DNA of 64,000 nucleotides from Bacillota bacterium (GTDB lineage Bacteria > Bacillota > Sulfobacillia > JAJYWN01). The number at the start of each line of letters is the position of its first letter. Within the stretch, counting starts at the first letter, position 1. The notes below the pieces were generated by a model. The model saw only the letters and a program-made list of their open reading frames with translations. It was not told the origin of the DNA and did not search any database. Below, in pieces: positions 55,424 through 57,248 of the stretch. The translations under genes were made by a program, and so were the position numbers. The stretch covers positions 16,140 to 80,139 of the forward strand of contig JAJYWN010000034.1 in NCBI GenBank assembly GCA_021791495.1. Direction: 5' to 3'.

Positions 55424-55774
55424 CTACTTGCGACGCGATTTCTTGGCGGTCCGCGTGCGGATGTAGTTCGCCCGCCACGGCCAGAAGACCAGGCCGATGA
55501 CGGCCACCACCACCAGAAGGACCAGGCTCAGCGGCCACGGTCGCCCCAAGGTGATCAGGGCCGAGGGCGTGGGGTTCGGCAGGCCTGGGGCCGGGACGGT
55601 GATGGCCGCCGGCACGTTGCCGCCGGGTTCGCTTAAGAGCCAGGCCGTGCCGAGAACGGCGGAGGTCAGGGCGGCGACCCAGGCTCCCGCCATCGAAAAA
55701 GCTCTCCAGAACCTCCGCGCTCTCCGAAGGCGGGAGGTTCTCTTTCTTTCGGCACGAGACGGCAAAGTGGTCAT
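55424..55774 (-). CDS. Hypothetical membrane protein
   Basis: Two hydrophobic segments flanked by basic tails; fills an intergenic gap. Confidence 0.5.
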   Translation of the reverse strand: MTTLPSRAERKRTSRLRRARRFWRAFSMAGAWVAALTSAVLGTAWLLSEPGGNVPAAITVPAPGLPNPTPSALITLGRPWPLSLVLLVVVAVIGLVFWPWRANYIRTRTAKKSRRK

Positions 55775-55873
55775 AGCAGCACTAGTCTTCCCCGATTGGC
55801 ATAACCGAAACGGCGGCCTGCCGAGGCCGGCGGTTGCGGGCAACCTAGAGGGGAGAGGTGACTTCGAAAAGCC

Positions 55874-56515
55874 ATGACGAACGACTCAAGCCTAAAGGCC
55901 AAGTTCAAGAAGAAACCGGACGCCGATGACTTCGACCCGAAGAAAGACATTGACTGGGAGAGTCTGGCCAAGCAGTTGAAGGTCAAACTGGTATCCTATG
56001 GTGGCGTACACTTCTCCGAGGCGCCCGCGCCGGTGCGTGGGCTTGTCGACAAACTGGCCACCGGGTCGAGGAGTGCGGGCGAACGGGGGAAGTCAGTCGC
56101 GAAAAGCGGGACCGGCACCGAGGGCAACGTCAAGCTCCCGATACGCATTTGGGGTCGCAGTCTGGAAGACGGGTCGATGATTCTGGTCCAGGAGGGCGGC
56201 CAAGTCTGGCTGGACGGGCCCGAGTACGTCAACATCTCCGCGTCCAACCCCCAGAGATTCGCCGAGATCCTGTCGGGCCACTCGGTGAGCGGGCTCACAC
56301 CGGAGGAGAGCGGGGTTTACGACGCGCAGGATCAGTTCTTCCGGCTGAGTAGTGAAGGGGAAGGCATCTTCGGAGGATACGAACTGCTCCCATCCCTTCT
56401 GGAGGCCAGGACGGAAGGATTGGATCTGCGACTCCGGGACGCCACGAAAAAGCCCCTTCCCTGGGTCTTCGGGCCGCCCGCGGGTGAGGGCGTCAAAGGC
56501 CAGGGAAAGAAGTGA
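55874..56515 (+). CDS. Hypothetical protein
   Basis: 213-aa ORF, GAGGTG RBS, typical codon usage. Confidence 0.7.
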   Translation: MTNDSSLKAKFKKKPDADDFDPKKDIDWESLAKQLKVKLVSYGGVHFSEAPAPVRGLVDKLATGSRSAGERGKSVAKSGTGTEGNVKLPIRIWGRSLEDGSMILVQEGGQVWLDGPEYVNISASNPQRFAEILSGHSVSGLTPEESGVYDAQDQFFRLSSEGEGIFGGYELLPSLLEARTEGLDLRLRDATKKPLPWVFGPPAGEGVKGQGKK

Positions 56516-56611: not shown

Positions 56612-57091
56612 CTAGCCCAGCGTTCGCAGCTCATCCATGACTGTGGCGATTTCGGGCCGGTCGGACGTGCTCTCACCTATGTAGGCATATTTCACCTTGC
56701 CGTCGCGGCCGATGATGAAAGTGGAAGGGCGCGGAATGCGTCGACCCCGGGGTTCGTTCTCGTGGAAGACCCCGTAAGCGAAGACCGAGGTCAGGTCGGG
56801 ATCGGACAGTACCGTGTAATCGAGGTGGTCCGTCTCCACCACCCGGGCCACTTCTTCCATGGGGTCGGGGCAAACGGCGATAACCTGGGCACCAAGGGTG
56901 TCGAAGTCGAAAATGGAGTGTCGCAACTGCGACAACTGTTTCCTTCAGGGGCCTCACCAGTATCCACGATAAAAGACCAGCACCACATGCGTATGCTTCA
57001 GGCTGTCCGCCAGGCTGACCATGTCGCCTTTTCCATCGGGCAGGGCGAAAAGGGGCGCATCGTCCCCAGGTTGGAGCTTGCTTGGCAGCAT
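56612..57091 (-). CDS. Peroxiredoxin-like AhpC/TSA selenoprotein with UxxU motif (159 aa)
   Basis: GGAGGGGG RBS and ATG; G..AP.F.LPD..G..V.L ... VLVFYRGYW-TGA-G-P-TGA-RKQL ... LSDP ... PSTFII..DG.V.Y; SECIS-like hairpin downstream. Confidence 0.88.
56915..56944 (-). promoter_or_regulatory. Candidate bacterial SECIS hairpin
   Basis: UGUCGC-AGUU-GCGACA upper stem with GGA/UCC lower stem; loop begins 16 and 25 nt after the two UGAs. Confidence 0.65.
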
Positions 57092-57248
57092 CTTGTCACC
57101 CCCCTCCGCCCACCAGAATGATAACGCGTGGTAATTCGGCCTTTCGTCCCCTTATCCCTTTCCAGTCTCCTCTTCCCTTTCCAGCGGGCGGCCGGCATAG
57201 AATGAGACATGAACTTGGCGAGGTACGTACGGAGGAGGCCCCCGGTCC

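What the first reader, a model, noticed from the sequence alone, without database searches (positions are those of the whole stretch)
56612..57091. Hidden di-selenocysteine (UxxU) peroxiredoxin-like protein with one SECIS-like hairpin for two UGAs
Seen: the ORF track shows only a 107-aa fragment, but the frame extends to an ATG with an RBS at 57091 through two in-frame TGAs (plus-strand TCA at 56954-56956 and 56945-56947). It reads VLVFYRGYW-U-G-P-U-RKQL, placing both TGAs exactly at the two Cys of the FYRGxWCxxC motif of AhpC/TSA-like thioredoxin-fold proteins. A hairpin with G in the second loop position starts 16 nt after the second UGA and 25 nt after the first. Known: bacterial Sec insertion needs such a SECIS; most redox selenoproteins carry one Sec, and UxxU is rare (selenoprotein L is the precedent). 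Inference: a diselenide redox enzyme in a Bacillota-like organism, with two UGAs three codons apart possibly decoded by a single SECIS.
Basis: partly seen in the sequence, partly recalled or inferred. Interest (0 to 1): 0.85.

Follow-up and report, generated by a model that had tools for sequence, protein, structure and literature searches.

The report
Two-selenocysteine peroxiredoxin-like redox protein gene
This is a real gene for a small thioredoxin-fold redox protein whose two active-site cysteines are both replaced by selenocysteine, apparently read with the help of a single RNA hairpin; proteins of this kind are already catalogued, so it is a new member of a known family.

Summary
Window 56612-57091 (-) reads as one 159-residue AhpC/TSA-domain protein. 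It has two in-frame TGA codons, at codons 46 and 49, which are the two redox positions of a WCxxC-type motif.

The genome has selA, selB, two selD genes and one tRNA-Sec, and it uses TGA as an ordinary stop.

Relatives carry U or C at both positions. I found UxxU in 5 other genomes or MAGs and in 30 confident metagenome contigs. UxxC and CxxC forms also occur.

One hairpin follows both codons. Its loop is AGUU and its stem energy is -7.9 kcal/mol. The loop starts 25 nt after UGA1 and 16 nt after UGA2. The hairpin meets the published bacterial SECIS rules for both codons and shows compensatory changes. It sits in the same register in UxxC relatives. Such hairpins are mostly missing from CxxC relatives (9 of 78, against 32 of 40 Sec forms). 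No second conserved hairpin and no tRNA-ReC-like gene were seen.

The family, [quoted passage not shown], is already listed in 2022 and 2026 reviews. A 2026 paper raised the one-SECIS-for-UxxU idea for hydrogenases.

Verdict: genuine, and a new member of a known kind. Decoding of both UGAs through one SECIS is well supported by comparison but has not been shown experimentally.

The parts
56612..57091 (-). Complete selenoprotein gene: 159 codons plus a TAG stop. It encodes an AhpC/TSA-domain (Prx-like) thiol:disulfide oxidoreductase with a UxxU redox motif. There is no signal peptide or membrane anchor in the reading.
   Evidence: PF00578 E 5.9e-30; Redoxin 4.3e-23; 2 TGA inside. AF2 pLDDT 96.0, pTM 0.91.
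57103..57107 (-). Shine-Dalgarno-like GGAGG. It is the start of a G-rich run that extends to 57099, upstream of the ATG at 57091.
   Evidence: Read directly; not tested further.
56954..56956 (-). UGA1, codon 46. This is the first redox position. It sits at the N-cap of helix 47-58 and aligns with the Thr of the Prx PxxxTxxC motif and with the first Cys of CxxC homologues.
56945..56947 (-). UGA2, codon 49. This is the second redox position. It aligns with the peroxidatic Cys of BCP/PrxQ and with the second Cys of CxxC homologues.
56919..56934 (-). SECIS core hairpin: a 6-bp stem with loop AGUU at 56928-56925. The loop starts 25 nt after UGA1 and 16 nt after UGA2.
   Evidence: -7.9 kcal/mol; covariation in 20 sequences, 91.4% paired, 0 of 500 shuffles as high; published model constraints.
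56917..56937 (-). Possible extended SECIS helix: three more pairs below a bulged U. Predicted for this sequence only.
   Evidence: fold of the isolated stretch, -9.0 kcal/mol. Not conserved in all relatives: pair 22-39 is unpaired in 6 of 20.

Best explanation
The gene encodes a cytoplasmic, 159-residue thioredoxin-fold protein of the AhpC/TSA superfamily. Its fold is closest to BCP/PrxQ and AhpE peroxiredoxins. Its WCxxC-type redox pair is written as two UGA codons, both translated as selenocysteine.

Decoding uses the organism's standard SelA/SelB/SelD/tRNA-Sec system and one SECIS hairpin inside the coding sequence. The hairpin's stem starts 19 nt after UGA1 and 10 nt after UGA2. SelB-GTP-Sec-tRNA(Sec) bound to that hairpin would serve UGA1. 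After three more codons, a second SelB complex on the same still-unmelted hairpin would serve UGA2.

The product would cycle between a diselenol and an intramolecular diselenide. Sec46 at the helix N-cap would be the attacking residue and Sec49 the resolving one. The protein would act as a low-potential thiol:disulfide-type oxidoreductase and not as a classical peroxidase.

Shown here: the gene, the motif, the machinery, the conservation of both UGAs, and the conserved covarying hairpin in a fixed register.

Inferred: that both UGAs receive Sec, that one hairpin serves both, and the redox chemistry and roles of the two residues.
For: GENE AND FOLD. PF00578 matches across both TGAs. The AF2 model has pLDDT 96.0 and pTM 0.91, with a helix starting at residue 47. 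Best Foldseek matches are Bcp4 3hjp at TM 0.92, AhpE at 0.86-0.88 and ResA at 0.69-0.74.

MACHINERY. selB scores 331.1 bits with its neighbouring piece (cut-off 242.25), and selA next to it scores 582.1 bits. Two selD genes each carry one TGA. tRNA-Sec(UCA) was found by ARAGORN and by RF01852 at 70.9 bits. TGA ends 582 of 1579 long open frames, so it is a normal stop here.

CONSERVATION. UxxU occurs in G031, G052, G386, G557 and a Chloroflexia-titled MAG. A metagenome pattern scan gave 75 hits; 49 match the protein at E<=1e-3 and 30 at E<=1e-10. UxxC and CxxC relatives align residue for residue.

SECIS. Of 31 distinct UxxU genes, 29 have one conserved hairpin. In 14 the loop lies 24-25 and 15-16 nt after the two UGAs. 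In 15 it lies 30 and 21 nt after them. Among the three best hairpins listed per gene, none is a second non-overlapping hairpin 16-37 nt after UGA2. Covariation in 20 sequences: 91.4% of cells paired, 3 pairs with double changes, 15 such cells, 0 of 500 shuffles as high, and slid controls at 24-64% paired. Pair 25-36 reads GC 6, UA 6, GU 5, UG 3, with no mismatch. In that pair an amino-acid-changing first codon base pairs with the synonymous third base of an Arg codon. UxxC relatives L023, L047 and L053 and the UxxT relative L054 keep the loop in the same register. Hairpins meeting the published rules occur in 32 of 40 Sec forms and 9 of 78 CxxC forms.

SPACING IN THIS GENOME. The UGA-to-loop gap is 17 nt in a TIGR02187 PDO selenoprotein (247 bits, cut-off 185) and 33 nt in both selD genes. 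Stem spacers therefore run from 9 to 25 nt, which brackets the 10 and 19 nt seen here.

NO tRNA-ReC-LIKE GENE. In 5 of 5 UxxU genomes the only RF01852 hits over the cut-off are one tRNA-Sec and an ordinary tRNA-Ser(UGA).
Against: There is no protein-level or expression evidence. No RNA run was listed, and nothing here shows which residue enters at either UGA.

UGA2's 16-nt gap is at the very lower limit of the published 16-37 nt range. It is one nt shorter than the shortest other gap found in this genome.

That makes a 9-nt tolerance on one mRNA non-trivial.

Part of the hairpin's sequence conservation is forced by the conserved peptide QL[SA]QLR.

Counts across relatives are not independent. 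The searches were also biased: the metagenome pattern demanded UxxU, and the genome contigs pattern demanded Cys.

Two AT-rich UxxU genes (L141, L159) show no simple hairpin.

The 81-nt region as a whole is not more stable than shuffles.

RF01852 and ARAGORN might miss an unusual tRNA-ReC. The genome is 97% complete, in 81 contigs.
Confidence: 0.68

Rival explanations
1. Mixed decoding. Only one UGA, most likely UGA1 as in the UxxC relatives, is read as Sec through the SECIS. The other is read as Cys by a tRNA-ReC-type tRNA or by near-cognate suppression, giving a selenenylsulfide (UxxC- or CxxU-like) protein.
For: A 2026 paper reports tRNA-ReC-like genes enriched in genomes with UXXU hydrogenases. 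It notes that one or both UGAs might then not be Sec (passages read). UGA2's spacing is at the edge of the published range.
Against: No second selC-like gene was found in this genome or in 4 other UxxU genomes. The second-best RF01852 hits are ordinary tRNA-Ser(UGA). UGA2 is kept as TGA, not TGY, in 31 distinct UxxU genes across at least three deep clades. That is hard to explain if Cys were the intended residue, because a one-base change would encode it directly.
Confidence: 0.17
2. Two separate recoding signals. The AGUU hairpin serves one UGA, and a second, unrecognised element serves the other. That element could be a further downstream structure or the local codon context.
For: In E. coli, spacing between UGA and SECIS is tightly constrained (recalled, not read here). 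A few genes show additional hairpins further downstream, for example L017, L152 and L183.
Against: The extra hairpins are not conserved in position or sequence, and they lie 38-57 nt beyond UGA2. 29 of 31 UxxU genes share just one conserved hairpin. UxxC relatives have the same hairpin in the same register, so nothing new accompanies the second UGA.
Confidence: 0.08
3. Not a working selenoprotein gene: a pseudogene, an assembly or sequencing error, or a gene ending at the first TGA.
For: Table 11 gives only fragments. The genome is a draft of 81 contigs. The G052 orthologue looks frameshifted after residue ~99.
Against: Both TGAs fall exactly on the two redox positions and recur in independent genomes and contigs. 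The frame is open and the domain complete on both sides. Coding-potential scores are positive on both sides. Two runs' contigs are identical over the stretch at word depths 29.6 and 8.4, though they may be the source. The SECIS covaries.
Confidence: 0.04

Closest known systems
Prx-like thiol:disulfide oxidoreductase selenoprotein family (PF00578; UxxC or UxxU; 1-2 Sec), first predicted in the 2004 'prokaryotic selenoproteome' study as cited by the reviews
   Same: Same Pfam domain, same position of Sec in the redox motif, and the same listed UxxU variant (reviews PMC9312934 and PMC13188914, passages and table rows read). The function is likewise only predicted.
   Different: I could not compare with the family's reference protein because no sequence was available, so membership rests on domain plus motif. 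The reviews, as far as I read them, give no SECIS analysis of the UxxU forms. The fixed-register comparison of UxxC and UxxU forms is added here.
BCP/PrxQ and AhpE peroxiredoxins (e.g. PDB 3hjp, 2ywn, 1xxu)
   Same: Best sequence and fold matches: E 6.5e-14 and TM 0.86-0.92. Sec49 occupies the peroxidatic-Cys position.
   Different: The Pro and Thr of PxxxTxxC are replaced by Arg42 and Sec46. The catalytic Arg aligns with Pro122 and is not conserved across the family. The CxxC-type pair resembles ResA/TlpA-like oxidoreductases instead.
Selenoprotein L (eukaryotic, UxxU diselenide) and NCBIfam NF040769 'SelL-related redox protein'
   Same: UxxU in a Prx-like thioredoxin fold. NF040769 is the top NCBIfam hit. 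The diselenide chemistry of SelL is recalled from Shchedrina et al. 2007, which I saw only as a reference entry.
   Different: The score of 69.2 bits is far below the 120-bit cut-off. Six other family members also fall below it, at 30-75 bits. SelL uses a eukaryotic 3'-UTR SECIS, where multiple UGAs per SECIS are routine. Here the SECIS is in the coding sequence and depends on distance.
UXXU-type Group 4 [NiFeSe] hydrogenases (PMC13582414, 2026)
   Same: Bacterial UxxU with one predicted downstream SECIS. The authors state the possibility that both UGAs are decoded under a single SECIS, and note that CXXU and UXXU forms share SECIS architecture (passages read).
   Different: It is an unrelated protein, and its Sec residues are metal ligands. 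There the ancestral Sec is the second position (CXXU); here it is the first (UxxC). That paper found tRNA-ReC enriched in UXXU genomes, whereas none was seen in 5 of 5 genomes here.

Membership tests
Prx-like thiol:disulfide oxidoreductase selenoproteins (PF00578, UxxC/UxxU) | AhpC-TSA (PF00578) domain | tested here: met
   104.2 bits (cut-off 26), covering profile positions 1-123 of 124.
Prx-like thiol:disulfide oxidoreductase selenoproteins (PF00578, UxxC/UxxU) | In-frame UGA at the first (and optionally the second) position of the xxC redox motif, aligned with Cys in homologues | tested here: met
   Of 80 genome-contig loci, 76 are CxxC, 3 UxxU and 1 UxxC.
Prx-like thiol:disulfide oxidoreductase selenoproteins (PF00578, UxxC/UxxU) | Sequence relationship to the family's reference protein named in the reviews | not tested
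Bacterial SECIS (bSECISearch consensus as restated in PMC13188914) | Apical loop of 3-9 nt and upper stem of 4-16 bp | tested here: met
   loop of 4 nt, stem of 6 bp.
Bacterial SECIS (bSECISearch consensus as restated in PMC13188914) | G in the first two loop positions, usually followed by G or U | tested here: met
   The loop is AGUU. G30 is at least 90% conserved in 20 sequences.
Bacterial SECIS (bSECISearch consensus as restated in PMC13188914) | [quoted passage not shown] | tested here: met
   25 nt for UGA1. 16 nt for UGA2, exactly at the lower bound.
Bacterial SECIS (bSECISearch consensus as restated in PMC13188914) | MFE <= -7.5 kcal/mol | tested here: met
   -7.9 kcal/mol for the 6-bp hairpin and -9.0 with the bulged extension.
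Bacterial SECIS (bSECISearch consensus as restated in PMC13188914) | Binding by SelB and support of Sec insertion | not testable with these tools
   Needs a reporter or binding assay.
Peroxiredoxin proper (BCP/PrxQ, AhpE classes) | PxxxTxxC active-site motif (Pro, Thr, peroxidatic Cys) | tested here: not met
   alignment: Pro is replaced by Arg42 and Thr by Sec46. Only the Cys position is kept, as Sec49.
Peroxiredoxin proper (BCP/PrxQ, AhpE classes) | Conserved catalytic Arg on the strand before the ...F(V/I)ID segment | tested here: inconclusive
   The PDB Arg aligns with Pro122, and Arg121 is adjacent. Arg121 is invariant in 3 close UxxU sequences but not across 31 family members.
Peroxiredoxin proper (BCP/PrxQ, AhpE classes) | Prx-type thioredoxin fold | tested here: met
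   TM 0.92 to 3hjp and 0.86-0.88 to AhpE.
SelL-related redox protein (NCBIfam NF040769) | Score at or above the curated cut-off of 120 bits | tested here: not met
   69.2 bits. Six relatives score 30.2-74.6 bits.
tRNA-ReC (selC*) assisted UGA-to-Cys recoding | A second selC-like tRNA gene in the genome | tested here: not met
   there is one tRNA-Sec per genome in 5 of 5 UxxU genomes, and the other hits are canonical tRNAs. An atypical tRNA could still be missed.

The most novel reading that the evidence does not exclude
A single intragenic bacterial SECIS hairpin, fixed in register, programmes two successive Sec insertions three codons apart on the same mRNA. The same SelB/SECIS geometry would then work at stem spacers of both 19 and 10 nt within four elongation cycles. 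UxxU proteins arose from UxxC ancestors simply by a TGY-to-TGA change at the second Cys, with no new RNA element. The result is a genetically encoded diselenide redox centre in a free-living Bacillota-type bacterium, which appears to keep its Sec machinery largely for a handful of thiol-redox proteins.
Probability: 0.6. Interest if true: 0.55.

Novelty: new member of a known kind. Interest (0 to 1): 0.36.

Why it matters
Standard annotation misses this gene; it is seen only as a 107-aa fragment. The gene adds a di-Sec protein to the selenoproteome of an uncultured lineage.

The family also gives a clean natural experiment on an open mechanistic point: how far bacterial SelB/SECIS tolerates changes in UGA-to-hairpin distance. 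Orthologues with one UGA (UxxC) and with two (UxxU) carry the same hairpin in the same register. Simple reporter constructs (UGA1 only, UGA2 only, both, hairpin mutants) could therefore settle whether one SECIS can serve two codons 9 nt apart.

The answer also bears on engineering multi-Sec or diselenide proteins in bacteria.

The existence of bacterial UxxU Prx-like proteins is not new.

Tried and rejected
- De novo selenoproteome scans of the genome by GC3 and frame rules were noisy and missed the known selD genes, so I dropped them. A codon-usage version gave 19 candidates. I kept only those confirmed by a family model or by conservation: the PDO and the multiheme cytochrome. The rest are adjacent genes in the same frame (for example the long two-part frame on C20 and the ABC ATPase with a regulator on C62) or unsupported.
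- GrdB search: there was no hit, but the control rang in no genome, so this says nothing.
- Neighbour genes in the window (ilvD-like dehydratase, TPP enzyme, two ORFs without a family, amidase with an SLH domain, FtsX/ABC transporters) give no functional clue. The gene stands alone on its strand.
- Sequencing runs: no RNA holder was listed. Runs X3 and X4 do not cover the two TGAs, so they say nothing about them.
- NCBIfam: no family reaches its cut-off for this protein or for 7 relatives.
- The tree does not resolve how often UxxU arose. It implies 4 changes on unstarred branches, while starred branches force only 1. The rows were also gathered by motif-biased searches. Rows left out: L067, L086, L111, L113, L117, L128, L134, L155 and L196 (my motif or length filter failed), L017 (frameshift), and L055 and L058 (the same sequences as L015 and L051).
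- Group C (AT-rich L141, L159): no simple hairpin was found. This is unexplained.
- Literature searches found no experimental test of one bacterial SECIS serving two nearby UGAs. This covers only the held library, and supplements were closed.
- Complex prediction, the search of protein representatives, the search for homologous proteins and the protein-atlas search were not used. The family and its Cys/Sec pattern were already clear.

Full report
OBSERVATION. On the minus strand, window 57091-56612 reads as one frame of 159 codons. It starts at an ATG preceded by GGAGG and ends at TAG, and it is interrupted only by two TGA codons at 56956-56954 and 56947-56945. Table 11 lists only the 107-aa tail. 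With TGA read as U, the local sequence is VLVFYRGYW-U-GP-U-RKQLSQLR. The read-through protein matches Pfam AhpC-TSA end to end (E 5.9e-30) and Redoxin (4.3e-23), and both matches span the two TGAs.

IS TGA A SENSE CODON HERE, AND IS SEC POSSIBLE? TGA terminates 582 of 1579 long open frames in the genome (TAG 694, TAA 303), so it is an ordinary stop and not globally reassigned. The 4.2-Mb draft (81 contigs, 97% complete, 63% G+C) has the full Sec system:
- selB, 331.1 bits together with its neighbouring piece, and selA next to it at 582.1 bits;
- two selD genes, each with one in-frame TGA;
- one tRNA-Sec(UCA), found by ARAGORN and by Rfam RF01852 at 70.9 bits.

The only other RF01852 hit above the gathering score is an ordinary tRNA-Ser(UGA). 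All 16 listed hits coincide with canonical tRNAs.

HOMOLOGUES. Searches that read through stops gave these results.
- In 61 relatives (G000 included), orthologues with two TGAs occur in G031 (51% identity) and G052. Relatives with one TGA occur in G026, G048, G034 and G010.
- In 210 genomes of the class, 15 had a match at E<=1e-15.
- In 401 genomes sampled from the phylum, 7 had a match, including two more two-TGA genes in G386 and G557.

Translation shows UxxU in all the two-TGA genes. The one-TGA genes are UxxC (G026, G048, G034, G129, G181, G117, G591), UxxT (a second gene in G386) or TxxU (G010). The TGA-free close relatives are CxxC or degenerate SxxS.

A scan of named genome contigs kept 80 loci: 76 CxxC, 3 UxxU and 1 UxxC. 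Two of the UxxU loci are the same as G031 and G386, and one is new, in a MAG titled Chloroflexia. That scan's main pattern required Cys, so the ratio is not a frequency.

A metagenome scan for F[FY]RGxW-TGA-xx-TGA found 75 stretches. Of these, 49 match the window protein at E<=1e-3 and 30 at E<=1e-10. The rest are chance matches. In all I had 31 distinct UxxU genes and 9 UxxC or UxxT genes. Both TGAs are therefore conserved features. They are not errors.

THE HAIRPIN. In the window gene a 6-bp stem with loop AGUU (-7.9 kcal/mol) begins 19 nt after UGA1 and 10 nt after UGA2. The loop begins 25 and 16 nt after them. The published bacterial SECIS model, as restated in the 2026 review (passages read), asks for four things: a 3-9 nt loop, a 4-16 bp stem, G in the first two loop positions, and a 16-37 nt gap with MFE <= -7.5. 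All four are met for both codons, with UGA2 exactly at the lower limit.

Comparison of the 31 UxxU genes:
- 14 have this hairpin in the same place, 12 with loop AGUU and 2 with CGUGUU.
- 15, from a second clade, have a different 7-bp hairpin (loop GUC or GUU) 30 and 21 nt after the two UGAs.
- 2 AT-rich genes show none.
- No gene shows a second, non-overlapping hairpin 16-37 nt after UGA2 among the three best hairpins listed per gene.

An ungapped alignment of 20 sequences (14 UxxU, 5 UxxC, 1 UxxT) gives 91.4% of cells paired, 3 pairs with changes on both sides, 15 such cells, and a covariation score that 0 of 500 shuffles reach. Sliding the partner drops pairing to 24-64%.

The most telling pair is 25-36, which reads GC 6, UA 6, GU 5 and UG 3, with no mismatch. 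The 5' base is the first base of a Ser, Ala or Val codon. The 3' base is the synonymous third base of an Arg codon. The second clade pairs in 100% of cells, with one compensatory pair, but it is too uniform to say much.

As a control, hairpins meeting the published rules follow the first redox codon in 32 of 40 Sec forms but only 9 of 78 CxxC forms. These are related sequences, so the contrast is descriptive and not a formal test. Folding the whole 81-nt region is not more stable than shuffles (z 0.22). The case for the hairpin is comparative.

ONE SECIS FOR TWO UGAs? The UxxC relatives L023, L047 and L053 and the UxxT relative L054 carry the AGUU loop at nt 29-32 counted from the U of their single UGA. 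This is the same register as in the UxxU genes. So this hairpin is the working SECIS for position 1, and the second UGA appears with no new RNA element.

Within this genome, other selenoprotein genes span the needed range:
- a TIGR02187 protein disulfide oxidoreductase (247 bits, cut-off 185) has a 17-nt gap and a 9-nt stem spacer;
- both selD genes have a 33-nt gap and a 25-nt spacer.

The 10- and 19-nt spacers of the window gene lie inside that range, and its 16-nt gap is one nt short of the smallest.

A 2026 paper on UXXU hydrogenases raises the same single-SECIS possibility and reports tRNA-ReC-like genes enriched in UXXU genomes (passages read). Here I saw no such tRNA in 5 of 5 UxxU genomes. 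Dual decoding by one hairpin is therefore the best-supported reading, but it remains an inference.

WHAT THE PROTEIN IS. AlphaFold2 with a 31-sequence alignment gives pLDDT 96.0 and pTM 0.91. A helix starts at residue 47, so residue 46 is at its N-cap and residue 49 in its first turn, which is the CxxC geometry of thioredoxin-fold proteins. Foldseek ranks BCP/PrxQ and AhpE peroxiredoxins first (TM 0.86-0.92) and ResA lower (0.69-0.74).

In the sequence alignment to PDB 2ywn, Sec49 aligns with the peroxidatic Cys. The Pro and Thr of PxxxTxxC are replaced by Arg42 and Sec46, and the catalytic Arg aligns with Pro122. The protein thus has a peroxiredoxin fold but a dithiol-type (here diselenol-type) redox pair.

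I infer a diselenol/diselenide cycle, with Sec46 as the exposed nucleophile. The very low potential expected of a diselenide is recalled from work on SelL and on model peptides, which I did not read here. The reading shows no signal peptide or anchor, whereas several UxxC and CxxC relatives have a hydrophobic N-terminal stretch. Neighbouring genes give no clue.

KNOWN OR NEW. Two reviews list 'Prx-like thiol:disulfide oxidoreductase, PF00578, UxxC/UxxU', and the 2026 one gives it '1~2' Sec residues (passages and table rows read). The 2008 GOS paper mentions UxxU sequences in another Prx-like family (passage read). NCBIfam has no model that captures this protein. The best, SelL-related, scores 69.2 against a cut-off of 120, and seven relatives also reach no cut-off. 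So this is a new member of a catalogued family. What this analysis adds is the fixed-register, covarying SECIS shared by the UxxC and UxxU forms. My searches of the held library found no experimental test of two nearby UGAs served by one bacterial SECIS.

PHYLOGENY. A quick ML tree of 106 rows places the window protein with L015, L137 and L165, all UxxU (SH-aLRT 91-93, not starred). That group sits inside a 34-row group that is mostly Sec forms. UxxU needs 4 changes on the tree, but starred branches force only one. Sampling was motif-biased, so I draw no conclusion on the number of origins.

READS. Contigs of two runs hold the stretch with no difference, at word depths 29.6 and 8.4, but they may be the source of this assembly. 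Two other runs do not cover the TGAs.

VERDICT. This is a genuine di-Sec gene of a known family. Interest is moderate, because the family offers a clean test-bed for SECIS spacing tolerance.

Noticed in passing
L219:152-1543 (-) = G000:C28:8151-9542 (outside the window): A 464-residue multiheme c-type cytochrome with about ten CxxCH motifs has one in-frame TGA in a conserved GEG-U-GG[AS]LPPLE motif. A conserved hairpin with loop GUU follows 17 nt later. The TGA is kept in the orthologues of 6 other genomes of the class (48-56% identity). No NCBIfam model reaches its cut-off; the weak hits are ExtM, ExtN and ExtO. The 2026 review lists other multiheme cytochrome selenoproteins (ExtKL, an octaheme family), so this may be a related or further family.
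   Followed up: partly
L218:214-945 (-) = G000:C36:22613-23344: A known-type selenoprotein: the TIGR02187 protein disulfide oxidoreductase (247 bits, cut-off 185) with motif TPT-U-PYC. Its strong SECIS has a 17-nt gap and -13.9 kcal/mol.
   Followed up: yes
L010 (G000:C10:34029-35000) and L011 (G000:C54:48833-49753): There are two selD genes, each with one in-frame TGA and near-identical SECIS hairpins (loop GUC, 33-nt gap). The FdhA homologue has no TGA. The selenoproteome detected so far consists of SelD plus thiol-redox and cytochrome proteins, with no formate dehydrogenase.
   Followed up: partly
L051:546-2843 and L140:3927-7111: In two unrelated UxxU loci the gene is directly followed by a DUF362 protein whose start overlaps its stop, and a metallo-beta-lactamase-fold protein lies close upstream. 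This neighbourhood is absent from L165, from L052 and from the window.
   Followed up: partly
L151:3389-4207 (-), L171, L088: One UxxU subclade (FYRGxWUP[TS]U...) carries an extra C-terminal region of roughly 110-130 residues with no family assigned.
   Followed up: no
L017:1501-1977 (G052:C11): The UxxU orthologue of G052 matches in two pieces in different frames, residues 2-99 and 95-153. This suggests a frameshift or an assembly error after residue ~99.
   Followed up: no
L141, L159 (metagenome contigs): AT-rich UxxU genes (FFRG[IV]WUDYU) form a separate clade among the CxxC forms. They show no simple SECIS-like hairpin within 16-37 nt.
   Followed up: partly
window 55497-56515 (+): Two adjacent ORFs of 126 and 213 aa, convergent with the selenoprotein gene, have no Pfam family.
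   Followed up: no
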